Notes under the pieces: model-generated
Seen by the model: only the letters and a program-made list of their open reading frames with translations
Databases searched by the model: none
Told to the model about the DNA's origin: nothing
In this document: positions 7,209 to 23,616 of the stretch, one piece after another
Layout: each line of letters starts with the position of its first letter
Numbering within the stretch: the first letter of the stretch is position 1
Position numbers and translations under genes: made by a program
Assembly: GCA_004321885.1 (NCBI GenBank)
Contig: SCQK01000015.1
Coordinates: forward strand, 1 to 31,763
Origin: Patescibacteria group bacterium
Lineage (GTDB): Bacteria; Patescibacteriota; Patescibacteriia; Magasanikbacterales; GWA2-37-8
Direction of reading: 5' to 3'
Length of the DNA stretch: 31,763 bases

Positions 7209-8727
7209 GCCTGTCAATCATTCCCCTAAACCCACGCGAGCCCAAAAAGACGATGGTGTCTTCTTTTTGGGCTGTCTTTTTTAAATAAGCGACCAGTGCG
7301 TCGTCGTCCGGCATGAATTTCGCGTTGTTGTGCGTTTTGGAAATAATTTTGGCCAGTTTGGCGCCATTCATAAGCTCGTTGGTTGTCTCCCCCTTGATAA
7401 GGGGGAGATTCACTACCACACCAAAATTTTTGGTGTGGTAGTGAAGAGGGGGTAATTTTAATTTCGTAAGCGCGGGAACAATTACTTCGTTGGCATTGGC
7501 AAAAGCGTGAGCGTACGATGGGGCCGAGGCCGCGCTCCGGCCGCCGGTATTGGGTTCAAATACCGCGTAGATTTTTCCCTTATAAATTTGGCGCAAAGTG
7601 GCGAGGGTTGACTTGGCTTTGGCCGGCGAGTGGGCGATGTCGTCGTAGACATCGGCGCCGCTTGCTTGTCCGCGTTTTTCCAGCCGCCGCTTCAAGCCGT
7701 CAAAAGTTTTAATAGCTGAGAGAATTTTTTCCGGCGCGATGCCGATTGCCGAGGCCAGCGCGAACACCCCGCACAAATTTTGCGCCATAAATTCGCCGAG
7801 CATGGGCGAGGAAACTTTATAAATTTTTTTCCCGTGTCGCAGTTCAAATTTTATGCCGCTGCCGCTCTGGCTAATTTTACCGTATTGGTAGTCGCATCGT
7901 TCAGCTTTGCCATACGTTATTGTCATTGCGAGGCCGTTTGCGGCCGAAGCAATCCCATACGTATTATTAGTAGGAGATTGTTTCGCTGCGCTCGCAATGA
8001 CACTTAAAACCTTCTCATCATCAGCGCACGCCACTATTAGTCCATGTTTTGGTATGGAAGCGATCAAATTTTCAAACGCGTCAAAATAGCTTTCTGCGGT
8101 GGGATAAATATCAGCGTGGTCCCAGCTGATGGAAGCGAGGAGCAGGTGAGTGGGGGAGTAGTGGGAAAATTTTGGTCGCGCATCCCAGCGGGCTGATTTG
8201 TACTCGTCGCCTTCTATCACGCTCCACCCCTCTTTTTTTCCGCTGGCTCCATAGTCCCCCGCAGGGGGCTGTGGAGCCAAACTGCCCATACTCGCCGATT
8301 CAAACCCGCTTATCGCCAGACCGCCGAACATGTAACTCGGCGCGAAATTGGCTTGCGTCAAAATCCACGAGAGCAAAGCCGCGATTGTCGTCTTGCCGCA
8401 GGTGCCGGCGCAGACGATGGAGTTTTGTTTCACGAAATATTCAGCCAATACCTCGGGATATGATTTGTATCTCAATTTTTTTTCCTGCGCCGCCAGCCAT
8501 TCAGGGTTTTGCGAACCGGCCACATTACCCACCACCACTAAATCCGGAGAGTCCATGCGCTCCGGATGCCAGCCCGGGTAAAATGCCACACCCGCAGATT
8601 TCAACCTCGTGGAAACCGGCGGGAAAAAGCCAACGTCACTGCCAGTCACTTTCCATCCGGCTTTCTTAAAAGCAACAGCAATCCCGCTCATTCCCACCCC
8701 GCAAATTCCGATAAAGTGAACATGCAT
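7177..8727 (-). CDS. Mur ligase of the MurC/Mpl family (UDP-N-acetylmuramate:L-alanine ligase or murein peptide ligase). It carries an in-frame GC-rich palindromic insert.
   Basis: The N-terminus 'HFIGICGVGMSGIAVAFKKAGWKVTGSD...YPPVST' is MurC/Mpl-like, with the YPPxST pattern resembling Mpl. Mur ligase middle and C-terminal domains follow. Nucleotides 7386-7456 encode 'KLPPLHYHTKNFGVVVNLPLIKGE' from a palindromic element. Confidence 0.8.
   Translation of the reverse strand: MHVHFIGICGVGMSGIAVAFKKAGWKVTGSDVGFFPPVSTRLKSAGVAFYPGWHPERMDSPDLVVVGNVAGSQNPEWLAAQEKKLRYKSYPEVLAEYFVKQNSIVCAGTCGKTTIAALLSWILTQANFAPSYMFGGLAISGFESASMGSLAPQPPAGDYGASGKKEGWSVIEGDEYKSARWDARPKFSHYSPTHLLLASISWDHADIYPTAESYFDAFENLIASIPKHGLIVACADDEKVLSVIASAAKQSPTNNTYGIASAANGLAMTITYGKAERCDYQYGKISQSGSGIKFELRHGKKIYKVSSPMLGEFMAQNLCGVFALASAIGIAPEKILSAIKTFDGLKRRLEKRGQASGADVYDDIAHSPAKAKSTLATLRQIYKGKIYAVFEPNTGGRSAASAPSYAHAFANANEVIVPALTKLKLPPLHYHTKNFGVVVNLPLIKGETTNELMNGAKLAKIISKTHNNAKFMPDDDALVAYLKKTAQKEDTIVFLGSRGFRGMIDRLISPRQPPQQ
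7920..8000. repeat. A 12-bp perfect inverted repeat 'tgtcattgcgag / ctcgcaatgaca' with a 57-nt spacer inside the Mur-ligase gene. The 'gtcattgcga(g)' half-site recurs at about 13332 and 28598.
   Basis: The arms are at 7920-7931 and 7989-8000, and the spacer contains the small hairpin ggccgtttgcggcc. The same 10-11-mer is seen in the intergenic region at 13332-13343 and at the annotated start of the 28597 ORF. Confidence 0.5.
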
Positions 8728-8745
8728 ATTGAGCAGATCGTCTGA

Positions 8746-9498
8746 CTATTGTTTTAGTATCTTCTTTAGCTCCTCCAAATTCCTCTTCCACTCCTTCCCG
8801 TCAAACCATTCCAGTCCATTAAACTGTAATTTATAGACATCGGCCGGGCGCTGGGCCGAGCCGATATACACGTATTTTTTTCCCTCCACCTTCGCGTGCA
8901 AAATCGCTTTTTGCATCATGCCCAGGCCCAGGTCTTTTTGTTTGGATTCAAGGTCGTAAAAAGGATAGCTGTAATGCAAGATATTTTTTGTTTCAAAACA
9001 AATGCAGTAGCCCAATACCCCCTCCCCCGTCCTCCCCCTAAGAGGGAGAGGACTACCAGCGGTATTTCCTTCCCCTTTTAGGGGAGGGGCAGGCCACCAC
9101 ACCAAAGATTTTGGTGTGGTGGCAGGGGGTGGGGTATAAATCAATAACAAATTAAAGTTGCTTTTTGCCGGGTCAGTCAGCATCTCTTTTATTTTTTGTG
9201 CGGAGAAAATTTTCGGTCCAAATTTTTTTTCGTAAAAATCCTTGCCCATCTTGTGCACGCGCCAGTCATAATCAGAGTAGGGGAGAGGGGCCGCGTCCAG
9301 TTCAAAATTTTTCGTATGGCTCAAAATGCGCCGGTTCTCGCTGTTTAGAATAAATTTGCCCAAATCAATGCGCACACTGCGCGTTTGATTCATATCGCCT
9401 TTGCCCGTGCGCGTAAAAACAAAACCCTCACTGTAAAGTTTTTCTACATTTTCATCCGCGAAATCAGAAATTGTTTTCTTGTTCCAAGATAGATACAT
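8746..9498 (-). CDS. ATE/Bpt-family (arginyl-/leucyl-tRNA-protein transferase-like, ATE_C domain) aminoacyl transferase. It carries a large in-frame palindromic-element insert.
   Basis: An 'GFVFTRTGKG...MNQTRSVRIDLGKF' segment resembles the ATE 'GWRRSG...QT..IR...F' region. The C-terminus 'YSYPFYDLESKQKDLGLGMMQKAILHAKVEGKKYVYIGSAQ' matches the ATE_C pattern Y-x-FYD-[PL]...SLG...I..AK..G..Y.Y[IL]G. Nucleotides 9010-9135 encode a Pro/Gly-rich 'TPPPATTPKSLVWWPAPPLKGEGNTAGSPLPLRGRTGEG' stretch. Confidence 0.55.
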   Translation of the reverse strand: MYLSWNKKTISDFADENVEKLYSEGFVFTRTGKGDMNQTRSVRIDLGKFILNSENRRILSHTKNFELDAAPLPYSDYDWRVHKMGKDFYEKKFGPKIFSAQKIKEMLTDPAKSNFNLLLIYTPPPATTPKSLVWWPAPPLKGEGNTAGSPLPLRGRTGEGVLGYCICFETKNILHYSYPFYDLESKQKDLGLGMMQKAILHAKVEGKKYVYIGSAQRPADVYKLQFNGLEWFDGKEWKRNLEELKKILKQ

Positions 9499-9534
9499 AG
9501 GAATAATGGCTAAGTGTTTGGATATGTTTTTACC

Positions 9535-10660: not shown

Positions 10661-10723
10661 TGTCATGCTGAACTTGTCACCACACCAAAATTTTTTGGTG
10701 GTGGTGACAAGTTCAGGATGACA
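10661..10723. repeat. About 63-nt near-perfect palindrome (extended A-type element) filling the spacer between the NlpC/P60-like stop and the mraY start.
   Basis: The sequence is tgtcatgctgaacttgtcaccacaccaaaa | ttttttggtggtggtgacaagttcaggatgaca. The arms are complementary except for 1-2 positions. The core 'caccacaccaaa-tttggtg(g)tggtg' is shared with 4 intragenic copies. Confidence 0.8.
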
Positions 10724-11580: not shown

Positions 11581-13338
11581 CTAAGTACGGGGGAATCCAG
11601 TACTTATTCGTTTAATCAATTTCGCCTTCAAAGTTTCCGGCAATAGATGAGTCTGCCCCAGTTTCTCCACTTCCACCCATTCCAATTGGTAGGAATTATT
11701 CGGATTATTGCGCGCCTGCTCGGGCCCGCCCAAAAATTCTTTGCCGGAAATATTTTTACCGAAAAAATAATGCTCTCGGCGCGGCGAGGCAATGGCGATA
11801 ATTTTTTTGCTTTCGTCAATTTCAAAATCCAAATTCGTCTCCTCTTTGGTTTCGCGCATGGCCGTGACGCGAAAATTTTCATTCGGCTCCACGGTGCCGC
11901 CGGGCATGGCAAAGTATTCATTGCCGTACTTGTTGCGCTTCATCAGCAAAATTTTGTCGTCTTTAATTAAAATCACGCCGGCGCGCGGCCGGTTCCAAAT
12001 CATATTTTTATGCGCTGAAATAATACCCACTAAAATAGACATCCCGACCTCGTTGAAAATGTTGTGTTTTTCCATCAACCCGCTCTCGCTTTGCACGCGA
12101 ATCAGGTCCGTGCCTAGTTTTACATTCTGGTACATTATGATATTAAAACTTTGCACGGCCTTGATTCTGGGTATTTCCAGTTCGTCTATGTTCAAAGTGA
12201 CCCTCTGCACGATTTGCGCGCCGTTTGTGATGGCCTGCAGGCGGTAGTCGTCCGGCGGCACGTCCAAAAGCGCGGCTACGTGCGCCTGAAAAGTGGTGGC
12301 GGCCGGCCGCGGCTTCATCAGTCCGCCCAGCCGTTTTTTGGGCGCGGCCTTGGCCATGGCCAACTCCTGCAACTGGGATTCAAAACTGGCCGAGGCCGGC
12401 TGGCGCGCGTTTACTTCCACCAGATACACTTGTCCGCCGGCTTCGTCTATCACCGCGTCTATGCCATAAAGCCCCTTCCATCCCTGGCTGGCCAGCCGTT
12501 CGCCTACTTCAATGGCTATTTTTTTGTACTGGGCCGCCTGTTCTTCGGTCAAAATTTTGCGCGGCATAGACCAGTCGTTGCCGATAGTGGCAAAGGGCAT
12601 GTCGGTAAAAGGCTTCAGGCCAGTGATTTGATAGCTGATGTTGCCGACAAACACCCTGTTTCCCCAGACCACGTTGTTGTTGGTAAAAAGCGGCCCCTTG
12701 ATGTACTCGGTTACGCGCACGTCGCGCCGCGGAAATTTTTCCCGTATCTCCTGCAGTTGTTTTTTGGATTCCACTAAAATTGTGCCCAGGCCCGTGTGCG
12801 AGCGGTTGAACTGCACGATAAACGGCTTGCCTTTCCACACCAGGTTGGCGCACAAGTCTATGCGGTGGGAAGGCAAGTGCGATGCCAATGGCCCCAGCCA
12901 ACGCACCTGGGAAATTTTTTCCTCCACTTCGTTGCAAAATTTGGCGCTCGGGTTGAGCAGGGCCCAGCCGTGGTCCGCGCAGAGCTCTTCTATATATATA
13001 TTGTTCTTAAACACCAAAACAAAGTCGCCTTTTTTGAGCAGAGACAAAGTTTTTTTGCGCGTCAGCAGTTCGCGCGTATCCAGCGGCCGCGGGTTGTCTA
13101 TCAAGATGATATTTTTGAAGCGCTTGGCCAGCTTGGACGAGTAGGAATTTTTGTTGGTGATGATATATATGCCGGGCTGGTGAAAATCCAGACCCTCGGC
13201 GCGCTCCACATCGCGGCAAACATAAAACAAACGCCGGCCAACGAGCTTGTTCGCGACTTCTTTGATAATATTTGATAACGGCATAGATTTAGTATATACT
13301 ACCTCAAAATTACCTGTGGCGCAATATCTGTTAGTCAT
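11581..13338 (-). CDS. Fusion protein with an N-terminal ATP-grasp ligase domain and a C-terminal NUDIX hydrolase domain.
   Basis: The ATP-grasp signature 'GLYGIDAVIDEAGGQVYLVEVNARQPASAS' (E-x-N) is present. The Nudix box 'PGGTVEPNENFRVTAMRETKEETNL' (GX5EX7REUXEEXGU) is in the last about 150 aa. A single uninterrupted 585-aa ORF encodes both domains. Confidence 0.7.
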   Translation of the reverse strand: MTNRYCATGNFEVVYTKSMPLSNIIKEVANKLVGRRLFYVCRDVERAEGLDFHQPGIYIITNKNSYSSKLAKRFKNIILIDNPRPLDTRELLTRKKTLSLLKKGDFVLVFKNNIYIEELCADHGWALLNPSAKFCNEVEEKISQVRWLGPLASHLPSHRIDLCANLVWKGKPFIVQFNRSHTGLGTILVESKKQLQEIREKFPRRDVRVTEYIKGPLFTNNNVVWGNRVFVGNISYQITGLKPFTDMPFATIGNDWSMPRKILTEEQAAQYKKIAIEVGERLASQGWKGLYGIDAVIDEAGGQVYLVEVNARQPASASFESQLQELAMAKAAPKKRLGGLMKPRPAATTFQAHVAALLDVPPDDYRLQAITNGAQIVQRVTLNIDELEIPRIKAVQSFNIIMYQNVKLGTDLIRVQSESGLMEKHNIFNEVGMSILVGIISAHKNMIWNRPRAGVILIKDDKILLMKRNKYGNEYFAMPGGTVEPNENFRVTAMRETKEETNLDFEIDESKKIIAIASPRREHYFFGKNISGKEFLGGPEQARNNPNNSYQLEWVEVEKLGQTHLLPETLKAKLIKRISTGFPRT

Positions 13339-13423: not shown

Positions 13424-14023
13424 ATGAAAAACGAAATAAAAGAAATAGAAAAAGACTTAGAATTTGTAAAAAATATTTATATAAAACTTCTAACGATATT
13501 GCCCAGTTTTAATATTACTGATAGCAAAATTTTGCCTTATGGCTTAAAAGCGCACACTAGATCGGTAAGTTGGTTAGTTGAGCAAGTTATTACACAGCAA
13601 ACTAAATTCAATGCAAAGAAACTTGATTTAGATGAAGTTAATTTTGACTTCCCAGATACCTCACTACATGATTGCGAAATTATTTATAAAGGGAGAAGTT
13701 ATTTTATAAATGTTAAAATTCACAATATTGGAAGCAAAGAAAATAAAAATGATATTTCTGCGGTAGAAAAACTTTATTTTCAATACAGTGTTAATAAAAA
13801 TTATACCTTAATATATGCTTGCTTTGGCATTAAATTTGAAAATATAAAAATAAATTTTGTTAAAGATTATTTAGAAGTTTTCTCGCCACAGTTTCTACCA
13901 ATTTATGTGAATCCTCGAAATGACAAAATTCAAGCCACCTATAGACATGATAAAGTATACAGAACGCGAGATGAATTTCTAAAAATGTTAAAAGAAAAAT
14001 CAAAAAGTATTATTTTAAAATAG
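13424..14023 (+). CDS. Putative type II restriction endonuclease, the R subunit of an AT-rich R-M islet.
   Basis: The 199-aa ORF has extremely low GC (about 20%). It lies 2 nt upstream of, and is co-oriented with, a beta-class DNA methyltransferase. No recognisable family motif was found, which is typical for REases. The assignment is by context. Confidence 0.45.
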   Translation: MKNEIKEIEKDLEFVKNIYIKLLTILPSFNITDSKILPYGLKAHTRSVSWLVEQVITQQTKFNAKKLDLDEVNFDFPDTSLHDCEIIYKGRSYFINVKIHNIGSKENKNDISAVEKLYFQYSVNKNYTLIYACFGIKFENIKINFVKDYLEVFSPQFLPIYVNPRNDKIQATYRHDKVYRTRDEFLKMLKEKSKSIILK

Positions 14024-14025
14024 CT

Positions 14026-14847
14026 ATGAATAAAATTTTTAACGAAGATATTTTATTAGGAATAGATAAAATAGAAGACAATTCTATTGATTTAATTTTA
14101 ACTGATCCTCCTTATTGTTTAGGCAAAGATTATGGCAATGATTCTGATCAAAAATCATCTGAGGATTATCTGAACTGGACATATCAATGGATTGATGCGG
14201 TTTTGCCTAAATTAAAAAATAGTGGAAGTTTTTATATTTTTTTAAGCTGGCAATATTCACCAGAAATTTTTTGTTATTTAAAAAAGAAATTACGAATGGT
14301 CAATGAAATTATTTGGGATAGACGAGTGCCAAGCATGGGCGGTTCTACTAGAAAATTTTCATCTGTCCACGACAATATAGGTTTTTTTGTAAAAAATAAT
14401 AATTATTATTTTGATTTAGATAGCATTAGAATTCCCTACGATGAAGAAACTAAAAAAGCAAGAACTCGATCAATTTTTGTTGGAAAAAAATGGTTAGAAA
14501 TGGGCTACAATCCAAAAGATTTATGGAGTACACCAAGAATACACACACAAGACCCTGAAAGAGAAAATCACCCAACCCAAAAACCTTTAGAAATAATTGA
14601 ACGAATGGTAAAAGCAAGTTGTCCTAAAAACGGAATTGTTTTTGATCCATTCATGGGAACCGGAACAACTGCTATCGCTTGCCTATCAAGCAATAGGCAA
14701 TATGTAGGATTTGAAATAAATAAAGATTATCACAAACTAATAACAAATCGAATCAAGAAACATAATAGTTGCCCGACTTTATTTCAACAACAGAAGCAAA
14801 AACAAGGTAATTTGACTCAAGGCATTCACCTATGCACGATAAATTGA
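14026..14847 (+). CDS. DNA methyltransferase, beta-class amino-MTase (N4-cytosine or N6-adenine), type II R-M system M subunit.
   Basis: An N-terminal 'DLILTDPPYCLG' (motif IV, DPPY) precedes a C-terminal 'HPTQKPLEIIERMV...VFDPFMGTGTTAIA' (motif I/SAM binding), giving the circularly permuted beta-class order. The composition is AT-rich. Confidence 0.85.
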   Translation: MNKIFNEDILLGIDKIEDNSIDLILTDPPYCLGKDYGNDSDQKSSEDYLNWTYQWIDAVLPKLKNSGSFYIFLSWQYSPEIFCYLKKKLRMVNEIIWDRRVPSMGGSTRKFSSVHDNIGFFVKNNNYYFDLDSIRIPYDEETKKARTRSIFVGKKWLEMGYNPKDLWSTPRIHTQDPERENHPTQKPLEIIERMVKASCPKNGIVFDPFMGTGTTAIACLSSNRQYVGFEINKDYHKLITNRIKKHNSCPTLFQQQKQKQGNLTQGIHLCTIN

Positions 14848-15758: not shown

Positions 15759-15767
15759 AAAATCATT

Positions 15768-15860: not shown

Positions 15861-15871
15861 AAACAATTTTT

Positions 15872-16231: not shown

Positions 16232-18573
16232 AAGAGCAGGCAATAAAATTGATTAGGCGTTTTTGGCCGGCTGGCTATGGCTTGGTCGGCTCTTTTATTA
16301 TTTCCGCCGGCTGGAACTGGTATCACACCGCCCATCGTCCCCACTGGCGCATTATTCTCATCACGCTCGGCGTTTGGGTGGTTGTTTACGCAGGTTTTCG
16401 CGGATTCAAATGGCTTTATGCGTACTTTACGCGGCGCTTCCGCAGGCACGAGTTTTGGCAAAAGAATTTTTACGTTGTTTTAGACCAGCTTTATTTTATT
16501 TTCTCGCTTATTTTTTTGGTTTTTTTCTCGCGCGACGAAATCGTCTCGGCCCTCTACGCGCCCGTGATTTTTTTAATCTTTTATTGGCGCCTTGACCGGT
16601 ACCTCAAAAAGCACCCCGATGGCGGAATGTGGCGCCGCGTCGCGCGCGCGTTTTTTTTGTTCGGCTTTTTTATTTTTCTATTGATGGATGTTTTGCAATA
16701 TTTTGCTTTTCGTTTGTATATACTGGACCCAAACGCCAAAATTTTTAACATTGTTTTTTTCCGCGCTTGGGCCATGGCCATATTTTGGCTGGCTACATTT
16801 GCCGTCTGCGCCATCTGGTATCGCTTCACGCGCAAATGGCATCGCTACGCGCCACTCGGTTTTTGGGCGCTTTGCTTTGTCGTCTATGCCGCGCTGTGGG
16901 CGCTAAATGTAGGCGTGCTCTACTACTCGGGCTTGTACTTAAATCCGGCGCTTTTGGAACACGCCGAGGGCGGCGCCGGCGCCGGTTATCTTTCCACCGG
17001 CGTCAGCTATTTACTTTTCGCGTTATTGGCAGTAATGCTGGGTCTTTTCACTGTGCTATTTAAAAAAATCATGAAAGCGCACGGAAATTCGGCTACGCGC
17101 CACTGGAATTATTACCATTTCGCCCTCATTGCTTTGGCGCTGTTTACTTTTTTGGCCGTGGCCAGCTTCAAAACCACTCCCGAATATCTTATCATCCGTT
17201 CTTTTTATAAATACTTCCGCGGCGAAACCGAAAAAATAGAATTGAACCAGGCGGTCAAGACAAAATTAGAGCGATTTGGTCTGAAATACAACACGGACCA
17301 GTTCTACGTCGCGCACAAGGATACGGTTTATCGCTCAAATCCTCCACTCCTCGCCCCAAAATTCTCTACCAAAAAACCCAACCTCGTCATCGTTTTCCTG
17401 GAGTCCTTTTCCAGTCGCCTCACCGGCGTTTATAATCCCAAATACAAAGAGCTTACCCCGGGCCTCAACAAAATGGCCGCGGACAAAAATACCACTGTTT
17501 TCAAAAACTACTACAATGCCAGCACTCCGTCCATCACTGGCATTATTTCTTTGCTTTGCTCGTACCTCACGCCATTCGGCCACAATGAAATTCAAAACGA
17601 AAACCGCTTGCAAAGAACTGGCCTGATGTGCCTGCCGCGCGCCCTGAAAAAAAACGGCTACAAGGATTTTTTGTATATGACCGCGGTGAGCGAGGAATTC
17701 GCCAACAAGGGCTCCATTGCCAAAAGCATGGGCATAGAAAAAATGCTGGGCCAGGAAGAGCTGAAAAAATACATCAAAGCTCCGCCCCTGGCCTGGGGCT
17801 ACAGCGACCACCAGATGTTTCCGTTGTTTTTTGATTTGATGCCAAAACAGCGCGAACCGTTTTTGATGATGCTGGCCACAGTGGACACGCACCCGCCGTT
17901 TACCACGGCCAAGGATATTTTGAAATATAAAAGCGGGGGCAGCAACATGCTCAACACTTTTCACACCACCGACGACGGCTTCTCCAAATTTTGGGACCAG
18001 TTCAAGGCCAGCCCGTATTACGAGAATACAATTTTGATTGCCGTGGCCGACCACGCGGTTTTTCCGGTGGCCTACGACAAAAAGGGTTTTCCCGACGAGT
18101 ATGGCAAGCGCACTTTTTACGACGAAAATTTGTTCCTGCTCTACGCGCCTGAAAATGTTCTGCCCAAAGAGGTCAAGACGCTTTCGTCGGGGATTGATTT
18201 CACGCCAACGATTTTGCAAATGCTTGGGATAAACAAGGTGCCAAACGCGTTTGAAGGACATTCTATTTTTGACGACCGCGCCAAATTTCCAAACATCCTC
18301 GGCATGCACGAGTTCGGGCTGTATATAAACCAGGCGATTTCTCAAAATCCTACCCCTATTAGGGGGAGGGCGGGCCACCACACCAAAGAATTTGGTGTGG
18401 TGGCAGGGGAGGGGGTTGAACGTCGCACCGACTACGCGGTCCCATCGCATCTGGAATGCGCCGACGCCGAGGTCGGCGCTTCATCCAGCACCCCGCTCAC
18501 CCTTTGCGAATTTTTGCATTTCTACAAATGGAAACGCCAGATGATGGAAGAGGGCCGGTTTTGGGAGAAGTAA
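16228..18573 (+). CDS. LtaS/MdoB-like sulfatase-domain (alkaline-phosphatase superfamily) membrane protein. The N-terminal multi-TM is followed by an extracytoplasmic phosphotransferase domain, with an in-frame GC-rich insert near the C-terminus.
   Basis: About 300 aa of hydrophobic helices precede 'PNLVIVFLESFSS...NASTPSITGIISLLCSY...ATVDTHPPF', which is sulfatase/LtaS-like. Nucleotides 18353-18480 (B and A palindromes plus the gcgccgacgccgaggtcggcgc hairpin) encode 'PTPIRGRAGHHTKEFGVVAGEGVERRTDYAVPSHLECADAEVGASS'. Confidence 0.6.
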   Translation: MKEQAIKLIRRFWPAGYGLVGSFIISAGWNWYHTAHRPHWRIILITLGVWVVVYAGFRGFKWLYAYFTRRFRRHEFWQKNFYVVLDQLYFIFSLIFLVFFSRDEIVSALYAPVIFLIFYWRLDRYLKKHPDGGMWRRVARAFFLFGFFIFLLMDVLQYFAFRLYILDPNAKIFNIVFFRAWAMAIFWLATFAVCAIWYRFTRKWHRYAPLGFWALCFVVYAALWALNVGVLYYSGLYLNPALLEHAEGGAGAGYLSTGVSYLLFALLAVMLGLFTVLFKKIMKAHGNSATRHWNYYHFALIALALFTFLAVASFKTTPEYLIIRSFYKYFRGETEKIELNQAVKTKLERFGLKYNTDQFYVAHKDTVYRSNPPLLAPKFSTKKPNLVIVFLESFSSRLTGVYNPKYKELTPGLNKMAADKNTTVFKNYYNASTPSITGIISLLCSYLTPFGHNEIQNENRLQRTGLMCLPRALKKNGYKDFLYMTAVSEEFANKGSIAKSMGIEKMLGQEELKKYIKAPPLAWGYSDHQMFPLFFDLMPKQREPFLMMLATVDTHPPFTTAKDILKYKSGGSNMLNTFHTTDDGFSKFWDQFKASPYYENTILIAVADHAVFPVAYDKKGFPDEYGKRTFYDENLFLLYAPENVLPKEVKTLSSGIDFTPTILQMLGINKVPNAFEGHSIFDDRAKFPNILGMHEFGLYINQAISQNPTPIRGRAGHHTKEFGVVAGEGVERRTDYAVPSHLECADAEVGASSSTPLTLCEFLHFYKWKRQMMEEGRFWEK

Positions 18574-18579: not shown

Positions 18580-20211
18580 ATGAATCAAGAGCGGGCCCTG
18601 CAAATTTTAAAAACCGGCGCCAATGTTTTTCTGACCGGCGAACCCGGGTCGGGTAAAACGCACACGGTAAACGCTTATGCGCGTTATCTGCGCCAGAGGG
18701 GGATCGCGCCGGCGATTACCGCGTCCACCGGCATAGCCGCCACGCATATCGGCGGTTTTACGATACACTCGTGGAGCGGCATAGGCGTAGCGCCTCGGCT
18801 GGACAGATATTTGCTTGATAAAATTTCCACAAACGAGAGGGTGGTAAAGCGCGCGGGCGCGGCCAAAGTGCTGGTGATAGATGAAGTTTCAATGCTCGGC
18901 CCGGAAACTTTGTCCATGGTTGACGCGGTTTTGCGGGAAATCAAAAGATGCCGCGAGCCGTTTGGCGGCTTGCAAATAATTTTAGTGGGTGATTTTTTTC
19001 AATTGCCGCCGGTGGAAAAAAACCTTCCGGAAATTCAGAATAGTTTACTCCAAGATAGGCCGGCGCGATTCGCCTTTGATTCGCCGGGCTGGAAAAATCT
19101 GCGGCCAATGGTTTGCTATCTCACGGAACAGCATCGGCAGGACGATCCGCAATTTTTGGGTTTGCTTTCCGCCATCCGTGGAAATCGCTTTAGCGACAAT
19201 CATCTATCTTTGATAAACAGCCGTAAAACCGAATCCGCCCAAGCGCCCGATCGCGTTCCCAAACTTTTTTCCCATAACATTGACGTTGGCCGCGTAAACG
19301 ATGAAACATTGTCCAAGCTTCCCGGGCCGGAAAAAACTTTTTTTATGTCATCGCGCGGAAACCCGCGATTGGTTGAATTTTTAATAAAGGGTTGCCTATC
19401 GCCTGAAAAACTTTGTTTAAAAAAGGGCGCGGCCGTGATGTTCACGAAAAATAATCAGGCCGAAGGGTATGTCAACGGCACGCTGGGAGTGGTACAAAAT
19501 TTCAGCGAGTCAGGCGCTCCGATTATAAAAACGCGCGGCGGGCGGTTTATTGATGTGACAGCGGCCGAGTGGGCGCTGGAAGACAACGGACGCGTGCTGG
19601 CGACGATTGAACAATTGCCCCTACGTTTGGCCTGGGCCATTACCGTGCACAAAAGTCAGGGTATGAGTTTGGATGAAGCGACCATGGATTTGAGCCGTGT
19701 TTTTGAATATGGACAGGGATACGTGGCTCTGTCGCGCGTGCGGCGGCTCTCGGGCGTGCATTTGCTGGGCTGGAACGAACGCGCTTTCGCCGTGCACCCG
19801 GAGGTTTTGGAAAAAGATCAGGAGTTTAGAACTTCGTCGTTGGCATCGGAAGAGGCGTTCGCGAAATTGCCGGACGAGGAACTAAAAAAAATGAGCGATA
19901 ATTTTGTCGTGGCCTGCGGAGGCCAGGTCGGTGGCGTCGTGTCCCCCTCCTTTATAAGGAGGGGGCAGGGGGAGGTATTGCAGGGGTCATCGCGGTCGGG
20001 CGGCTTTGATAAAATCCGTCAAGATCACCCAAACGCCTATCGCCCGTGGGAGCCGGAGCAAGACGAAGAATTAAAAAAACTTTTCGCGCGAAAAACATCA
20101 ATCAAGGATATATCAAAAAAACTTGGCCGCAAAAAAGGCGGCATCACTTCGCGCCTGGTGCGTCTGGGCGTTGTTGAAAGCCGCGAGCAAGCCAGGGCAC
20201 AGCGCGGTTAA
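18580..20211 (+). CDS. SF1B PIF1/RecD-like ATP-dependent DNA helicase with a C-terminal HTH-like tail.
   Basis: Walker A 'TGEPGSGKTH', Walker B 'VLVIDEVSMLG' and 'ILVGDFFQLPPV' are present. The C-terminal portion is UvrD_C-like, and the last about 60 aa are 'KKLFARKTSIKDISKKLGRKKGGITSRLVRLGV'. Nucleotides 19943-19965 (B-type palindrome) are in frame, encoding 'VVSPSFIRRGQGE'. Confidence 0.75.
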   Translation: MNQERALQILKTGANVFLTGEPGSGKTHTVNAYARYLRQRGIAPAITASTGIAATHIGGFTIHSWSGIGVAPRLDRYLLDKISTNERVVKRAGAAKVLVIDEVSMLGPETLSMVDAVLREIKRCREPFGGLQIILVGDFFQLPPVEKNLPEIQNSLLQDRPARFAFDSPGWKNLRPMVCYLTEQHRQDDPQFLGLLSAIRGNRFSDNHLSLINSRKTESAQAPDRVPKLFSHNIDVGRVNDETLSKLPGPEKTFFMSSRGNPRLVEFLIKGCLSPEKLCLKKGAAVMFTKNNQAEGYVNGTLGVVQNFSESGAPIIKTRGGRFIDVTAAEWALEDNGRVLATIEQLPLRLAWAITVHKSQGMSLDEATMDLSRVFEYGQGYVALSRVRRLSGVHLLGWNERAFAVHPEVLEKDQEFRTSSLASEEAFAKLPDEELKKMSDNFVVACGGQVGGVVSPSFIRRGQGEVLQGSSRSGGFDKIRQDHPNAYRPWEPEQDEELKKLFARKTSIKDISKKLGRKKGGITSRLVRLGVVESREQARAQRG

Positions 20212-20337
20212 GTCAACTAAAACCGTCCCATTCGAGTCGCCTCAAAAGCGGCTTTTCTTGTAATTTCCGGCGGGGAGGAGTAAAATAAGGTTAAAAACCA
20301 AAATGAATGTCCAATTATAGACATAATAGGATCCAGC

Positions 20338-21171
20338 TTGTCGGGTATGTCAAAAATTTTGGAAAATATTAAGCAGCGACCATATTTTTCGAAGAACAAT
20401 TTTGTCCTGTACAGGGACAACTGTTTAAATATTCTGGGAAAATTACCAGAGAATTCGGTTGACATGATTTTTGCAGATCCTCCTTATTTGCTTTCGAACG
20501 GCGGAATGACGTGCAATGGGGGGAAAATGGTAAGCGTTGATAAAGGGCAGTGGGATGTGAGTAACGGTTTAAAAAAGGACTGGGAATTTCATTTGAGCTG
20601 GATTAAAGCGTGTCATCGAGTATTAAAGCCATGCGGAACAATTTGGATAAGTGGGACCTATCACTCCATTTATCAATGCGGATTCGCTTTGCAGGTCAAC
20701 AAATTTCATATTTTGAATGATATTGCCTGGTTCAAACCGAATGCGTCTCCAAATTTGAGTTGTCGATTTTTTACTGCTAGCCACGAAACGATTATTTGGG
20801 CTCGGAAAGATAAAAAAGGAAAACACAAATTTAATTATGAGCTAATGAAAAACAGAGACTGGACGGGTGATTTTATAAAAAAACCGAATCTTCAAATGCG
20901 AAGTGTTTGGGCTATTTATCCTCCCAAAAAAGAAGAAAAGATTTTTGGTAAGCACCCCACTCAAAAACCGATAGATTTATTGGTTAGGATTATCCTCGCA
21001 AGCACAGATAAGGGCGACATTGTTTTGGACCCATTTACCGGCTCTTCAACTTCAGGGCTGGCGGCATTTTTGAATGAAAGAAAATTCGTTGGTATTGATT
21101 TGGAAAAAAAATATCTAGATATATCCATTAAACGTTTCAGCAGTTTTAAAAAAGAAGCCCCTCATTTATGA
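20338..21171 (+). CDS. Orphan beta-class DNA amino-methyltransferase (N6-adenine or N4-cytosine).
   Basis: An 'DMIFADPPYLL' (DPPY) motif is N-terminal, and 'HPTQKPIDLLVRIILAST..GDIVLDPFTGSSTSG' is C-terminal. The islet is low-GC (about one-third). No intact REase ORF is adjacent. Confidence 0.85.
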   Translation: MSGMSKILENIKQRPYFSKNNFVLYRDNCLNILGKLPENSVDMIFADPPYLLSNGGMTCNGGKMVSVDKGQWDVSNGLKKDWEFHLSWIKACHRVLKPCGTIWISGTYHSIYQCGFALQVNKFHILNDIAWFKPNASPNLSCRFFTASHETIIWARKDKKGKHKFNYELMKNRDWTGDFIKKPNLQMRSVWAIYPPKKEEKIFGKHPTQKPIDLLVRIILASTDKGDIVLDPFTGSSTSGLAAFLNERKFVGIDLEKKYLDISIKRFSSFKKEAPHL

Positions 21172-21282: not shown

Positions 21283-21303
21283 TGGACACTAATAATTTTT
21301 AAT

Positions 21304-23616
21304 ATGGCGCAAAAAGTTTTCACGACGACAAAAACCCCACCCCCTGCCACCGCCGCGAGGCGGGGCCCCGCCGTGGCGGTGGCCCCTCCCCTAAAAGGGG
21401 AGGGGGCCAACTGGATTCCCGCCTCCGCTGGAATGACAACTTTAGAAAAATTAGCCCGGATGTTGCGGGCCCTGATATTCGCCTCGGTGGAAGCCGGCCA
21501 ATCAGGCCATCCGGGCGGCAGCAGTTCCAAGGTGGAGCAATTTTTAACAATGCTCCTCGGCGGTTTTGTGGCTTTTGACCCGGCCAATCCTAAAAATCCC
21601 GGGCGCGACCGCGTGGTGTGGAGCTCTGGCCATTGTACGCCTTTGCTCTACGGCGGTCTGGCCATGCTCTATGAAGCCATGCGGCGCGAGGGCAGGCAAT
21701 TTTCCAAAGCCGCTGTGGGCGCCGTGTTTCCCGAAGACCTGGCCAGCTTTCGCCAGACCCACGGCTTGCCCGGGCATGCTGAAAGCGTGTATCCGCTGGT
21801 GGATGTTTCCACCGCCTCATCAGGCCACGGGCTGTCAGCCGCGGTTGGGATAGCCATGGCACACAAATCCAGTGGTCTTGATACAAAAATTTGGGTGCTC
21901 ATGGGTGATGCCGAAACTGAAGAAGGCATCAGCTACGAAGCGCGCAATGTGGCCGCGGCTTCGGGCCTAAACAATGTTATTGTTTCTTTGGATTACAACG
22001 GCTTTGGCATAGACGGCCCCATCACCGAGGCCATGGTTTCCAGCCCGGGCGCGCAGTGGTCGGCCCTGGGCTGGAATGTGCTCATAGCCGACGGCCATGA
22101 TTTTTCCGCCCTGGCCGCGGCCTACGCTAAAGCACAGCGCGCGGACAAGCCCACGGTGGTGGTTTGCCGCACCATCAAAGGCAAGCATTATGGGGCGCGG
22201 GAAAACAGCCATTCTTCGCACGGCACGCCCTTGCCTCATGACGAGTATGCCGCGGCAGTCAAAAAATTAGGGTTTGATATAAAAGGAGAAAAGGGCAAGG
22301 CCATCGCGGACATAGAAAAAATTATAGACCAGCTGGGCGAACGCGAGGCTGATTTTATTTCCAAAGCGCTCAAAAAATGCGCGGCCAAAATCAAACCCGA
22401 AGAAGAGCTGGTAAAAAAAATGAAAACCGCCCTGCCGGGCAGGCCGTTTAAGGGCGTTCTGAATGTGCAGCGGCCGAAAAAATTGTCGCCCGAACTGGTG
22501 TTTGCTCCGGGCGCCAATGTCAGCGGGCGCAAGGCGGCCCAGGCCTGGTGCAAATGGCTGATGACCCAGAGCGCGTTTGTGTTTGCCGGCGCCGGCGACG
22601 TCAGCAAGTCCGTACTCACTGCCGCGGCGGAAAACGTGTACGGCGTTATCGGACCGGCCAATCCGCTGGGCCGCGGCATTCGCTTTGGCATTGCCGAGGC
22701 CAACATGGGCATGGTTGCCAGCGCGCTGTCGCAGGAAATTTTGCCCGGCGGCATTCGGCCCTCTTGTATTTTTGGCACCTACAGCGTGTTCGCCCCCATG
22801 ATGGCCAACAGCATTCGCATGTCTTTAATTGACAGAAAAATAAATAAAGACCGGCGCGGATTTTTTGTGGCTTTGGCGTCTCACGACGGACCAGAAACAG
22901 GCGAAGACGGCCCCACACATCAGGGTCTTTACTGGATGTCGCTTTTTGACGCCTATCCGGGCATAAAAGTGTACAAGCCCGCCGACGCCAACGAAACAAT
23001 AGAAATGCTTTTTCACGCCCTCCAAATCGGCGAGCCGATAGTTTTGTCTTTGCCGCGCGCGGACTGGCCCGTGATAGACCGCGCTTGCGCGCCGGCGGCC
23101 AGCGAAGCGAATAACGGCGCGTATGTTTTTAAGGATTACACCCCCTCCTCGCCACCACACCAAAGCATTTGGTGTGGTGGCGAGCCTCCCCCTTCTAAAG
23201 GGGGAGGGAAAACGGCTGCTCCACAAATAAGGGGAGGGAAACGTATCGTGCTCGCCGTCTGCGGAGGCCAGCTCTTGCAAAACACGCTGGCCATACTGCC
23301 AGACTTGGAAAAGAAAAAATTGAACGTCAAAATTATCGTGGTAACGGCGCCCGAGCTGTTTGAGGATTTGCGCGCTCGCGACCCGAAAAAAGCGCGCGCT
23401 ATTTTAAGCGACGAAGAACGCGCCGACATAATCACCCTGCACAACGGCTGGCCCGGATTTTTGCGCCGATTTTTACTGCCGGAAAATTACGCCGCGCGCG
23501 AAATCGGAGTCGCGGATTTTTTGGTTTCCTGCAAACCGGCCGACGCCTACGACATCGCCGAACTTTCGCCCAAAGACCTAATAAAAAAAATCCTAAAAAA
23601 TGTCAAAGATAACTAA
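21304..23616 (+). CDS. tkt: Transketolase (TPP-dependent). The likely true start is the ATG at 21433, because the first 43 codons of the long ORF lie in C- and B-type palindromic elements. It also carries an internal in-frame A/B element.
   Basis: Motifs 'SGHPGGSSS', 'GDAETEEGISYEA' and 'GEDGPTHQG' are transketolase hallmark motifs. Nucleotides 21346-21405 are palindromic repeats. Nucleotides 23150-23240 (A plus B elements) encode 'PSSPPHQSIWCGGEPPPSKGGGKTAAPQIRGGK'. Confidence 0.85.
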   Translation: MAQKVFTTTKTPPPATAARRGPAVAVAPPLKGEGANWIPASAGMTTLEKLARMLRALIFASVEAGQSGHPGGSSSKVEQFLTMLLGGFVAFDPANPKNPGRDRVVWSSGHCTPLLYGGLAMLYEAMRREGRQFSKAAVGAVFPEDLASFRQTHGLPGHAESVYPLVDVSTASSGHGLSAAVGIAMAHKSSGLDTKIWVLMGDAETEEGISYEARNVAAASGLNNVIVSLDYNGFGIDGPITEAMVSSPGAQWSALGWNVLIADGHDFSALAAAYAKAQRADKPTVVVCRTIKGKHYGARENSHSSHGTPLPHDEYAAAVKKLGFDIKGEKGKAIADIEKIIDQLGEREADFISKALKKCAAKIKPEEELVKKMKTALPGRPFKGVLNVQRPKKLSPELVFAPGANVSGRKAAQAWCKWLMTQSAFVFAGAGDVSKSVLTAAAENVYGVIGPANPLGRGIRFGIAEANMGMVASALSQEILPGGIRPSCIFGTYSVFAPMMANSIRMSLIDRKINKDRRGFFVALASHDGPETGEDGPTHQGLYWMSLFDAYPGIKVYKPADANETIEMLFHALQIGEPIVLSLPRADWPVIDRACAPAASEANNGAYVFKDYTPSSPPHQSIWCGGEPPPSKGGGKTAAPQIRGGKRIVLAVCGGQLLQNTLAILPDLEKKKLNVKIIVVTAPELFEDLRARDPKKARAILSDEERADIITLHNGWPGFLRRFLLPENYAAREIGVADFLVSCKPADAYDIAELSPKDLIKKILKNVKDN

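What the first reader, a model, noticed from the sequence alone, without database searches (positions are those of the whole stretch)
7386..23245. Family of GC-rich palindromic mini-elements inserted in frame into protein-coding genes (RPE-like)
Five copies of a 29-33-nt near-perfect palindrome are present at 7411-7443, 9094-9122, 10661-10723, 18374-18404 and 23150-23182. It has the form (g)ccaccacaccaaa-[1-5 nt]-tttggtgtggtgg(c). Each copy is flanked within about 40 nt by 'CCCCC-T/A loop-GGGGG' hairpins. One copy is intergenic, in the NlpC-mraY spacer. Four lie inside long uninterrupted ORFs for a Mur ligase, an ATE/Bpt transferase, an LtaS-like protein and transketolase. There they are translated as Pro/Gly/His-rich peptide segments such as ...PPLHYHTKNFGVVVNLPLIKGE..., ...SLVWWPAPPLKGEGNTAGSPLPLRGRTGEG... 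and ...HHTKEFGVVAGEGVERR.... Elements roughly twice as GC-rich as the local coding sequence, read through without stops in essential enzymes, are the hallmark of Rickettsia palindromic elements. That behaviour is rare outside Rickettsiales.
Basis: seen in the sequence. Interest (0 to 1): 0.85.

Follow-up and report, generated by a model that had tools for sequence, protein, structure and literature searches.

The report
Tiny in-frame palindromic jumping elements
The window carries nested families of very small palindromic mobile DNA elements, whose core is a 29-base hairpin that lands with a 4-base duplication, adds exactly 11 stop-free codons to essential genes, and recurs almost unchanged in genome bins labelled as many different phyla.

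Summary
Four exact copies of CCACACCAAA-NNN-TTTGGTGTGG and one variant sit at the stated coordinates. Four lie in ORFs whose conserved protein sequence continues in frame downstream.

The core ('C') is a 29-nt perfect palindrome flanked by a 4-nt direct repeat, so it adds 33 nt, or 11 codons. It has no stop codon in any of six frames in 124 of 127 copies.

Their labels span CPR groups, Omnitrophota, Deltaproteobacteria, Planctomycetota, Nitrospira and an archaeon. There, 65 of 119 copies have perfect 4/4 direct flanks, mostly TTTA. A queA filled/empty comparison shows a clean 33-nt gap.

In the window, C is nested inside a second family ('B', C5/G5 hairpins) that is largely absent from the other C-bearing loci examined. 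One copy is nested inside a third hairpin family ('D'). Ortholog alignments show that the encoded peptides are private insertions in variable loops.

The RPE analogy holds for behaviour but not for membership. The elements are not twice as GC-rich as their host genes, and intragenic palindromes are already known outside Rickettsiales.

No transposase was found, so the mobilising enzyme is inferred. I found no prior description of this element in the searchable literature.

The parts
7413..7441 (.). C element, 29-nt palindrome CTACCACACCAAAATTTTTGGTGTGGTAG, inside the Mur ligase gene. Read on the minus strand as ..HYHTKNFGVVV... Its flanks TTCA/TGAA are inverted, not a direct repeat.
7387..7452 (-). 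Composite B+C unit of 66 nt (22 codons) in the Mur_ligase_C domain. Layout: CCCCCTCTTC terminus, then C, then hairpin CTCCCCCTTATCAAGGGGGAG. It encodes PPLHYHTKNFGVVVNLPLIKGE, which is absent from 17 orthologs.
   Evidence: The AlphaFold model gives pLDDT below 50 and coil for residues 424-449. RNA fold -44 kcal/mol, z -9.3.
9094..9122 (.). C element CCACCACACCAAAGATTTTGGTGTGGTGG with a perfect 4-nt direct repeat, CAGG/CAGG.
9018..9134 (-). Long composite of 117 nt with terminal inverted repeats CCCCACCCCC...GGGGGAGGGGG and flanks TATA/TATT. It contains C plus two C/G hairpins (9071-9085, 9032-9048). It encodes about 39 aa in the ORF that has a weak ATE_C match.
   Evidence: RNA fold -82 kcal/mol, z -8.4.
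10661..10723 (.). Intergenic hairpin of family D (TGTCATSCTGAACTTG...CAAGTTCAGSATGACA) in the spacer between the NlpC-like gene and mraY. The same family sits in the same spacer of the syntenic contigs L241 and L242.
   Evidence: (I11)
10678..10706 (.). 29-nt C variant CACCACACCAAAATTTTTTGGTGGTGGTG, with one arm mutated, at the apex of the D hairpin.
18375..18403 (.). C element CCACCACACCAAAGAATTTGGTGTGGTGG with flanks CGGG/CAGG (3 of 4 direct).
18348..18416 (+). Composite B+C unit of 69 nt, 88% identical to 9067-9135. It lies in the LtaS/sulfatase-like gene and gives a private 23-aa insert. The conserved C-terminus continues in frame.
   Evidence: (D1)
23152..23180 (.). C element CCACCACACCAAAGCATTTGGTGTGGTGG with inverted flanks CTCG/CGAG.
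23141..23240 (+). Composite B+C unit of about 100 nt (boundaries approximate), 82% complementary to 7387-7453. It lies in transketolase and encodes about 30 aa, TPSSPPHQSIWCGGEPPPSKGGGKTAAPQIR, in the loop before the KxVLAxCG strand.
   Evidence: (I1)
19943..19975 (+). B element without C, 33 nt: CCCCCTCCTTTATAAGGAGGGGGCAGGGGGAGG. It lies in the C-terminal extension of Pif1 helicase (SPSFIRRGQGE). It serves as a paralogous 'empty site' for the C insertion seen at 9018-9134.
21340..21405 (+). B-type unit with a different, GC-rich central palindrome, CCACCGCCGCGAGGCGGGGCCCCGCCGTGGCGGTGG, followed by hairpin CCCCTCCCCTAAAAGGGGAGGGG. It lies in the non-homologous first 44 codons of the transketolase ORF, which may really be 5' leader.
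23623..23700 (+). B-type unit with two hairpins, directly after the transketolase stop codon. It overlaps the first ~34 annotated codons of the P-type ATPase ORF, so it is either intergenic or an N-terminal extension. One hairpin matches a terminator-like pattern.
1745..1776 (+). Intergenic B element without C.
1910..1942 (+). Intergenic B element without C, 33 nt.

Best explanation
The finding is a set of nested, non-autonomous mobile palindromes.

**The core (C).** C is a 29-bp foldback mini-transposon made of two 13-bp terminal inverted repeats, 5'-C(C/T)(C/A)CCACACCAAA, separated by 3 nt.
- It integrates with a 4-bp target-site duplication, preferring RTTTAY.
- Each insertion therefore adds 33 bp, which is 11 codons.
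- Because it has no stop codon in any of six frames, an insertion into a gene preserves the frame. It is read through as an 11-residue loop: PHTKxFGVGV, PPHQxxWCGG or TPTPKxLVWG, depending on phase.
- Copies that land in tolerant surface loops persist.

**The window.**
- C inserted into members of a second family (B) that is largely absent from the other C-bearing loci examined. B has an ATACCCCCTC-type terminus plus a CTCCCCC-TWWWWA-GGGGGAG hairpin.
- C also inserted once into a third hairpin family (D).
- The B+C composites were then copied as units, giving two pairs with 82-88% identity.

**Shown:** the anatomy, the target duplication, the 33-nt filled/empty difference, multi-copy dispersal, nesting, and in-frame continuity of conserved protein sequence.

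**Inferred:** that the mRNA is translated straight through, and that movement is catalysed in trans by a transposase recognising the CCCCCACACC termini. The enzyme family is unknown. A DDE-type cut-and-paste enzyme is favoured because of the covarying duplication and the random orientation.
For: **Target duplication**
- Of 119 non-redundant copies, 65 have identical 4-nt flanks in direct orientation and 84 match at 3 or more of 4 positions. Only 8 have inverted flanks, and 5 of those are self-palindromic tetramers.
- TTTA/TAAA accounts for 49 of the 65 perfect duplications, but CAAG, CAGG, CATG, TCAA, TATA, CGAG and others also occur as matched pairs.

**Filled versus empty sites**
- queA of L092 carries ATTTA[29 nt + TGTA]TCC. 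Two orthologs with about 80% DNA identity (L239, L240) have ATTTATCC, a gap of exactly 33 nt.
- At the protein level the filled gene reads IFIY-PHTKIFGVGVY-PGYKF. About two dozen of the 34 closest homologs listed show the intact empty site IFIYPGYKF.
- Within the window, B units with and without C differ by exactly 33 nt at ...CCCCCTG|CCCC....

**Shared termini**
- MITE-like elements of about 60-170 nt (and a ~290-nt candidate without matching flanks) have the same termini, (C/T)CCCCACACC...GGTGTGGGG(G/A), and mostly TTTA/TAAA flanks.

**Stop-free sequence**
- 124 of 127 copies have no stop in any of six frames, against 10% of random 29-mers drawn from the same DNA.

**Insertions in real genes**
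- 40 of 108 copies lie at least 50 codons deep in an open frame on both sides.
- In a sample of ten, Pfam domains spanned the insert in PutA, a P-type ATPase, RecJ, a Mur ligase, YjeF and two UvrD genes; two more hosts (PolX, HsdS) had domains on both sides, and one had no Pfam hit.

**Private inserts in the window genes**
- MurC.
- Transketolase.
- LtaS-like and Pif1.
- The ATE-like ORF.
- The MurC insert is modelled as a low-confidence coil between confident elements.

**Orientation**
- Loop orientation is random relative to the asymmetric target: GAT 9 against ATC 8, and AAT 8 against ATT 7. This fits symmetric ends.

**Dispersal**
- At least 108 loci in GTDB genomes, where about 0.5 chance hits are expected for 20 specified bases in 596 Gb. 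Host GC ranges from 0.33 to 0.69.
- The window's CCACC variant occurs in 9 metagenome contigs with the same duplication rule.
Against: - No autonomous element or transposase gene was found. I looked in the window, in about 0.8 Mb of flanking loci, in IMG/VR and in plasmids.
- A 29-bp duplex is too short to loop both ends into a classical synaptic complex. The chemistry may therefore involve the hairpin form, or the 29-mers may be derived products.
- Two of the four window copies have inverted rather than direct flanks.
- The B family's boundaries and any duplication it makes are not resolved.
- The preferred target is not palindromic, which is unusual for DDE enzymes with short duplications.
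- There is no transcript or peptide evidence for read-through.
- Phylum labels are the submitters' own, and MAG binning errors could inflate the apparent host range.
- The sample was collected with a pattern that fixes the loop at 3 nt. The dominance of the 29-nt size class is therefore partly due to how copies were found (one search found 26- and 28-nt relatives).
Confidence: 0.75

Rival explanations
1. REP-type elements moved by an HUH/Y1 transposase (RAYT or IS200/IS605-like) acting on the single-stranded hairpin. The apparent TTTA(C) flank would be a cleavage or target tetranucleotide, as TTAC is for IS608.
For: - The size (20-40 nt), perfect hairpin and intragenic occurrence resemble REPs, which are known inside repair and replication genes (PMC3733652).
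- The 29-mer folds as a stable DNA hairpin, -14 to -15 kcal/mol.
- A hairpin mechanism avoids the problem of looping a 29-bp duplex.
- B units look like a conserved 5' tail plus a hairpin.
- The similarity of the preferred target TTTAC to the IS608 target TTAC is recalled from memory only.
Against: - GTAG or CGTC tags occur at 1 each of 250 element ends.
- The flanking tetramers covary as true duplications at non-TTTA sites. IS200/IS605-type insertion makes no duplication.
- Orientation relative to the asymmetric target is random, whereas Y1 insertion is polar.
- No Y1 transposase domain was seen among the window ORFs.
Confidence: 0.12
2. The hairpins are selected functional structures rather than selfish insertions. 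They would act as mRNA or DNA structural signals such as pause sites, stabilisers, terminators or protein-binding sites. This would explain why the same loops carry hairpins in several related genomes.
For: - A B-type unit sits at the same MurC loop in the syntenic contig L118.
- The spacer between the NlpC-like gene and mraY carries a family-D hairpin in the window, L241 and L242.
- The same sites in the ATE-like ORF, Pif1 and the transketolase loop carry different palindromic inserts in different genomes.
- The folds are very stable, -38 to -82 kcal/mol with z from -5 to -9.
Against: - The inserts at shared sites are unrelated in sequence, which fits tolerant loops better than a conserved signal.
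- Most orthologs have nothing at those sites.
- C copies occur in unrelated genes, in all three phases and in both orientations.
- Terminator-like sites are not enriched: 36 found against 30 +/- 5.5 expected, and only one B hairpin qualifies.
- There is no Rfam match.
Confidence: 0.08
3. The 29-mers are not mobile themselves. They would be in-situ remnants left by repeated excision or internal deletion of longer elements with the same ends.
For: - Longer elements with identical termini and the same duplication coexist in the same genomes.
- Minor size variants of 26 and 28 nt exist.
- A 29-bp duplex is an awkward transposition substrate.
Against: - Independent deletions would not converge on one 13+3+13 architecture with arms that are identical for 13 nt, beyond the 10-nt termini shared with the longer elements.
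- Many copies lie in coding regions, where a longer precursor that is not a multiple of 3 nt would have been lethal.
- Copies are nested inside other small elements.
Confidence: 0.05

Closest known systems
Rickettsia palindromic elements (RPE-1 to RPE-10; Ogata et al. 2000, 2002, as summarised in PMC10969869 and PMC3733652)
   Same: - Palindromic and multi-copy.
- Inserted in frame into unrelated housekeeping genes and read through as extra peptide segments compatible with the fold.
- Also found between genes.
   Different: - RPEs are about 100-150 bp, and RPE-4/-6 are CGTC-tagged REPs. They are confined to Rickettsia.
- Here the unit is 29 bp with a 4-bp target duplication and no CGTC tag.
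- The host is a Patescibacteria bin, and the same unit is found under many phylum labels.
- Sequence similarity to RPE consensus sequences was not tested.
REPs / BIMEs: GTAG- and CGTC-tagged repetitive extragenic palindromes, mobilised by RAYTs (PMC3733652)
   Same: - 20-40 bp GC-containing hairpins in high copy number.
- Sometimes intragenic, including in repair and replication genes, as seen here for UvrD, RecJ and PolX.
- Occur as mosaics of different hairpins, like the B+C+D nesting here.
   Different: - No GTAG or CGTC tag.
- True covarying 4-bp target duplication.
- Random orientation.
- No RAYT gene seen.
- Near-identical sequence in bins labelled as different phyla, whereas REP families are, from my own knowledge, typically specific to a species or genus.
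Bacterial MITEs (for example Correia/NEMIS, RUP, Coxiella QMITE; PMC10969869, PMC5896051)
   Same: - Terminal inverted repeats, a target-site duplication, no coding capacity and many copies.
- Termini shared between size variants.
- Occasional in-frame fusion with host ORFs.
   Different: - MITEs are described as about 70-300 bp with 15-30 bp inverted repeats (PMC3733652).
- This unit is only two 13-bp repeats and a 3-nt loop.
- The cognate insertion sequence is unknown.
- The 33-bp net length makes every insertion frame-neutral, which is not a general MITE property.
piggyBac / IS1380-type DDE transposons (a lead from memory only)
   Same: - A 4-bp target duplication at a T/A-rich tetramer.
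- Ends beginning 5'-CCC...GGG-3'.
   Different: - Nothing was tested. No such transposase was found near any copy.
- The target TTTA is not the palindromic TTAA.

Membership tests
Rickettsia palindromic elements (RPE) | In-frame insertion into functional ORFs, with read-through | tested here: met
   Conserved protein sequence continues in the same frame after each insert, and orthologs lack the segment.
Rickettsia palindromic elements (RPE) | Element length of about 100-150 bp, or a CGTC-tagged short form for RPE-4/-6 | tested here: not met
   The core is 29 nt and the composites are 66-117 nt. CGTC occurs at 1 of 250 ends.
Rickettsia palindromic elements (RPE) | Sequence homology to RPE consensus sequences; Rickettsia host | not tested
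The host is labelled 'Patescibacteria group bacterium', locus tag EPN28_04635.
REP (GTAG/CGTC superfamilies) | A conserved GTAG or CGTC tetranucleotide at one end of the palindrome | tested here: not met
   1 GTAG and 1 CGTC among 250 ends.
REP (GTAG/CGTC superfamilies) | Association with a RAYT (Y1/HUH transposase) gene in the genome | tested here: inconclusive
   No such domain among the window ORFs. The rest of the genome was not available.
MITE (non-autonomous DNA transposon with terminal inverted repeats) | Terminal inverted repeats | tested here: met
   13-nt perfect arms. The 10-nt termini are shared with elements of about 60-170 nt, plus a ~290-nt candidate.
MITE (non-autonomous DNA transposon with terminal inverted repeats) | Target-site duplication of fixed length | tested here: met
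   4-nt direct repeats: 65 of 119 perfect and 84 of 119 matching at 3 or more of 4. A 33-nt filled/empty gap.
MITE (non-autonomous DNA transposon with terminal inverted repeats) | Many dispersed copies and no coding capacity of its own | tested here: met
   At least 108 loci.
MITE (non-autonomous DNA transposon with terminal inverted repeats) | A cognate autonomous insertion sequence with the same ends | tested here: not met
   None found in the window, in 118 loci, in IMG/VR or in PLSDB. The search was limited, so absence is not proven.
MITE (non-autonomous DNA transposon with terminal inverted repeats) | Usual size range of about 50/70-300+ bp | tested here: not met
   29 bp.
Intrinsic terminators | A GC-rich stem followed by a T-run, located at gene ends | tested here: not met
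   Only the hairpin at 23636-23659 fits. There is no enrichment, and most copies lie inside ORFs.
Known structured RNA families (Rfam 15) | A match at the gathering threshold | tested here: not met
   0 matches in the window.

The most novel reading that the evidence does not exclude
The 29-bp unit may be the smallest self-contained transposable element described. It would be two transposase-binding ends and nothing else, with a length plus duplication (33 bp) and a six-frame stop-free sequence that make it invisible to the reading frame. That would let it colonise essential genes. It would spread horizontally, almost unchanged, among bacteria of many phyla (and possibly archaea) in groundwater and sediment communities. 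It would seed 11-residue loops in conserved enzymes and act as a landing pad or cargo in mosaics with other hairpin families.
Probability: 0.35. Interest if true: 0.85.

Novelty: new variant of a known kind. Interest (0 to 1): 0.7.

Why it matters
**If confirmed:**
- In-frame 'selfish DNA in proteins' would stop being a Rickettsia curiosity. It would be common in uncultivated lineages and driven by a definable, extremely small element with a simple rule: 29 + 4 = 33 nt, with no stops.
- It would give a concrete, testable source of lineage-specific loops in conserved enzymes such as Mur ligase, transketolase, QueA, UvrD, RecJ and PutA.
- It would provide a marker for recent horizontal exchange between phyla in subsurface communities.
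- It would pose a mechanistic puzzle: how is a 29-bp duplex or hairpin mobilised?

**Practical consequence:** such inserts lengthen proteins, break domain models and can mislead annotation and structure prediction of MAG proteins.

Tried and rejected
- **Frame selection.** Intragenic copies favour the PHTKxFGVG frame (28:8:7). However, the phase distribution of the target motif TTTAC/GTAAA in long ORFs predicts 53:28:20. My own chi-square from those counts is about 2.9 (p about 0.24, not a tool output), so I make no claim of selection on the peptide.
- **Phage carriage.** The core has 0 hits in IMG/VR. The 14-mer terminus gave at least 120 hits that look like chance. The only paired candidates were a terminase region and a 760-nt stretch with an HTH-containing ORF of unknown family.
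- **Plasmids.** BLAST against PLSDB found nothing relevant.
- **Autonomous element.** I paired exact and fuzzy termini over up to 5 kb in all loci, which yielded only MITE-sized partners. The copies at contig ends in the Nitrospira-labelled MAG turned out to belong to a repeat of about 150 nt, not an insertion sequence.
- **Rfam.** No match.
- **Terminators.** No enrichment.
- **Composite peptide search.** The 40-aa peptide from the ATE-like ORF was searched against 1.84 billion representative proteins. There was one weak hit lacking the motifs. This suggests the B+C composite in that frame is lineage-specific, although bias filters may hide short hits.
- **Loop-codon depletion.** No TAA, TAG or TGA loops were seen. 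I judged this uninformative because loop composition is strongly biased.
- **Assembly artefact.** Rejected. The copies come from several assemblers and studies, including a contig whose name suggests a long-read assembly (an inference from the name only). They are internal to long ORFs and obey a duplication rule.
- **Literature.** Sequence and keyword searches found no description of this element. The library is incomplete, so this is not proof of novelty.

Full report
**1. Observation**

- Near-perfect palindromes lie at 7412-7442, 9093-9123, 18374-18404 and 23151-23181. All share the exact core CCACACCAAA-NNN-TTTGGTGTGG.
- A variant forms the apex of a 30-nt-arm hairpin at 10661-10723.
- The arm 10-mer with up to 1 mismatch occurs 12 times, against 2.4 expected, and no shuffle reaches 12.
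- Short C-run/AT-loop/G-run hairpins are also strongly over-represented: 11 found against 0.38 in shuffles.

The window is about 50% G+C. The elements have 0.41-0.63 G+C against 0.45-0.57 for their host genes, so the 'twice as GC-rich' statement is wrong.

**2. Context**

The window is a contig of a 'Patescibacteria group bacterium' (locus tag EPN28_04635). The nearest homologs are about 53-58% identical, and many are labelled Magasanikbacteria.

Genes in the region (hpf):
- a Mur ligase
- an ORF with a weak ATE_C match
- MraY
- an NlpC-like protein
- an ATP-grasp/NUDIX protein
- a restriction-modification islet
- MurB
- hpf
- a sulfatase/LtaS-like protein
- Pif1
- a DNA methylase
- transketolase
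- a P-type ATPase

No transposase domain is present. Three public contigs (L118, L241, L242) are syntenic with the window and served as comparators.

**3. The core element C**

About 0.5 chance hits would be expected in 596 Gb.
- All hits are in MAGs.
- Their labels include many CPR classes, Omnitrophota, Deltaproteobacteria/Thermodesulfobacteriota, Planctomycetota, Nitrospira, Ratteibacteria, Margulisiibacteriota, Spirochaetia, Clostridia and an archaeon.
- Local G+C ranges from 0.33 to 0.69.
- Lining the copies up shows a 29-nt perfect palindrome, (C/T)C(C/A)CCACACCAAA NNN TTTGGTGTGG(G/T)G(G/A).

*Flanks.* The four bases on either side are a direct repeat, not a continuation of the palindrome.
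- Among CCC/GGG copies, TTTA..TTTA occurs 21 times and TAAA..TAAA 18 times. The two inverted combinations occur once each.
- Over 119 non-redundant copies, 65 have perfect 4/4 direct flanks and 84 match at 3 or more of 4 positions. Eight have inverted flanks, and five of those are self-palindromic tetramers.
- Non-TTTA flanks also come in matched pairs (CAAG, CAGG, CATG, TCAA, TATA, CGAG...). This is therefore a real target-site duplication and not a fixed element end.

*The window's variant.* The CCACC form was found in nine further metagenome contigs with the same rule, with TTTA, TATA, CAAG and CAGG duplications.

**4. Direct filled/empty evidence**

In a Falkowbacteria-labelled MAG (L092), queA reads IFIY-PHTKIFGVGVY-PGYKF.
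- About two dozen of the 34 closest homologs I listed (69-85% identical) read IFIYPGYKF. For the rest my motif pattern did not match, so their site was not read.
- At the DNA level, two orthologs about 80% identical in the flanks have ...ATTTATCC... where L092 has ATTTA[CCCCCACACCAAAATTTTTGGTGTGGGGG TGTA]TCC. The gap is exactly 33 nt.
- A second CPR genome (L082) carries a copy at the same codon, with the loop in the opposite orientation.

Inside the window the same 33-nt difference separates B units with a core from B units without one, at ...CCCCCTG|CCCC....

**5. Consequence for coding**

29 + 4 = 33 nt, so every insertion adds 11 codons.
- 124 of 127 copies have no stop codon in any of six frames, against 10% of random 29-mers from the same DNA.
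- 40 of 108 copies lie at least 50 codons deep in an open frame on both sides. Random positions do so 63% of the time, so genic copies are depleted but far from excluded.
- A sample of ten such ORFs was scanned against Pfam. In seven, a domain spans the insert: PutA, a P-type ATPase, RecJ, a Mur ligase, YjeF-type dehydratase and two UvrD genes. Two more hosts (PolX, HsdS) have domains on both sides of the insert. One had no Pfam hit.
- Frame use is 28:8:7, favouring PHTKxFGVG. The phase of the TTTAC/GTAAA target in ORFs predicts 53:28:20, so I do not claim selection on the peptide.
- Loop orientation is random relative to the asymmetric target RTTTAY.

**6. Relatives of C**

- Elements of about 60-170 nt, plus a ~290-nt candidate without matching flanks, share the 10-nt termini (C/T)CCCCACACC...GGTGTGGGG(G/A). 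They mostly have TTTA/TAAA flanks, and some have a 29-mer nested inside.
- In the Nitrospira-labelled MAG the copies at contig ends belong to a repeat of about 150 nt.
- Rare 26- and 28-nt foldbacks exist.
- This pattern is what a transposase that recognises short termini would produce. However, no autonomous copy was found in the loci, in IMG/VR or in PLSDB.

**7. Anatomy in the window**

Each of the four ORF copies of C sits inside a B unit. B consists of a terminus of the type (A)ATACCCCCTC, a short spacer, and a hairpin CTCCCCC-TWWWWA-GGGGGAG.
- The copy at 9094-9122 has a perfect CAGG/CAGG duplication.
- The copy at 18375-18403 has CGGG/CAGG.
- The other two copies have flanks that extend the palindrome instead.
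- The composites fall into two pairs. 9067-9135 resembles 18348-18416 at 88%. 7387-7453 is 82% complementary to 23140-23206. This shows that B+C was copied as a unit after C had landed.
- The 117-nt unit at 9018-9134 has its own terminal inverted repeats (CCCCACCCCC/GGGGGAGGGGG) and folds into a closed multi-hairpin structure of -82 kcal/mol.
- At 21340-21405 a B unit carries a different, GC-rich palindrome with CCACC...GGTGG ends at the same internal position.
- B hairpins are about 20 times rarer in the other C-bearing loci (0.18 against 3.5 per 10 kb). B therefore appears largely absent from the other loci examined, while C is widespread.
- The fifth, intergenic copy is a 29-nt C variant at the apex of a hairpin of a third family, D: TGTCATSCTGAAC...GTTCAGSATGACA. 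Family D occupies the same spacer between the NlpC-like gene and mraY in L241 and L242.

**8. Are the peptides lineage-specific loops?**

*MurC.*
- A 22-residue private insert lies within Mur_ligase_C and is absent from 17 homologs.
- One homolog (P0057, on L118) has a C-less B unit at the same loop.
- The AlphaFold model has pTM 0.84. It gives pLDDT below 50 and no secondary structure for residues 424-449, between a confident strand and a confident helix.

*Transketolase.*
- About 30 private residues lie in the loop between GAYVxK and KxVLAxCG.
- Most orthologs have nothing there. A few carry other, unrelated repeat-derived inserts.

*LtaS-like.* A 23-residue private insert is followed by a conserved C-terminus.

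*Pif1 and the ATE-like ORF.* Related genomes carry different palindromic-repeat peptides at the same sites, for example VILSEAKNP..LPQDD and VIPSEALADEGSIP.

These loops are therefore recurrent landing or tolerance sites.

*Uncertain N-terminal cases.* The first 44 residues of the transketolase ORF and the start of the ATPase ORF, both of which contain B units, are not supported by homology. They may be untranslated.

**9. Mechanism**

*Shown.*
- The element's structure.
- The duplication.
- The frame-neutral length.
- The six-frame openness.
- The nesting.
- The multi-copy dispersal.
- The persistence in variable loops.

*Inferred.*
- Straight translation through very stable mRNA hairpins.
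- Trans-mobilisation by an unidentified transposase.

I favour a DDE-type enzyme, because the duplication covaries with the site and orientation is random. The resemblance to piggyBac/IS1380 (4-bp duplication, CCC...GGG ends) is from memory only and was not tested.

The main difficulty is physical. A 29-bp duplex cannot loop, so the hairpin form or a longer donor may be the true substrate.

*Rivals.*
- A RAYT/IS200-like single-strand mechanism. Against it: no GTAG/CGTC tags, a true duplication and random polarity.
- Selected structural signals. Against it: unrelated sequences at shared sites, no terminator enrichment and no Rfam match.
- In-situ deletion remnants.

**10. Comparison and novelty**

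In behaviour this is the RPE phenomenon. In structure it lies between REPs and MITEs.
- It fails the defining tags of REP superfamilies and the size and tag of RPEs.
- It meets the MITE criteria except for the usual size and a known parent insertion sequence.
- Intragenic palindromic repeats are documented outside Rickettsiales (PMC3733652, PMC5896051, PMC10969869), so the general behaviour is known.

I could not find the following described: the 29 + 4 = 33 rule, the six-frame openness, or the near-identity of the unit in bins labelled as many phyla.

I rate it a new variant of a known kind, of considerable interest. The caveats:
- The enzyme is unknown.
- Expression is unverified.
- Host labels are unverified.
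- The sample was collected with a fixed-loop pattern.

Noticed in passing
window 15755-15873: A 31-nt inverted repeat (90% complementary) with a 57-nt GC-rich centre lies between the murB stop codon and the start of a Ribosomal_S30AE/hpf-like ORF (about 15873-16231). It looks like another foldback or MITE-like element, or a regulatory hairpin.
   Followed up: partly
window 74-1600 (and 2-240): The ORF has 61-64% G+C, far above the rest of the window. It has about 150-nt tandem-like repeats (2-90 against 152-240, 75% identical) and a sub-threshold Pfam match (25.8 bits against a 27-bit cutoff) to the Dictyostelium CTDC repeat. This may be a secreted repeat protein or foreign DNA.
   Followed up: no
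window 13424-14847 and 20338-21171: Two low-GC islets (0.33-0.41 G+C) carry N4/N6 DNA methylases. The first also has an ORF with a weak (sub-threshold) SwaI-like restriction endonuclease match. The two methylase genes share a 49-nt stretch that is 76% identical. The first islet interrupts the otherwise conserved order from the ATP-grasp gene to murB seen in L118, L241 and L242.
   Followed up: partly
L118, L241, L242 and homologs P0024, P0033, P0043, P0048, P0057, P0077, P0124, P0143: Orthologs in related CPR genomes carry other recurrent repeat-derived peptides inside conserved proteins. Examples are VILSEAKNP...LPQDD, RSEESLSQ, LRSAQND/LRFAQDD, VIPSEA(V/L)ADEGSIP and SPLGRGRGG. Several further families of in-frame palindromic elements therefore appear to exist. 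L241 has the same unit, CCCCGCTTGGGCGGGGTAGGGGTGGG, in both its LtaS-like gene and its transketolase gene.
   Followed up: partly
L082 and L092 (queA); P0272: Two CPR genomes carry a C copy at exactly the same queA codon, in the motif IFIY|PGY encoded by ATTTAYCC, with opposite loop orientation. A third QueA has a copy at a different site. This suggests a target hot spot created by a conserved protein motif.
   Followed up: partly
window 27093-28529: A BlaI-like repressor (Penicillinase_R) is followed by a BlaR1/M56 peptidase-like membrane protein. This is a sensor-repressor pair in a CPR genome.
   Followed up: no
window 11581-13338: The ATP-grasp protein is fused to a C-terminal NUDIX domain (585 aa). 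The syntenic orthologs in L118, L241 and L242 are 418-426 aa and show only the ATP-grasp match.
   Followed up: no
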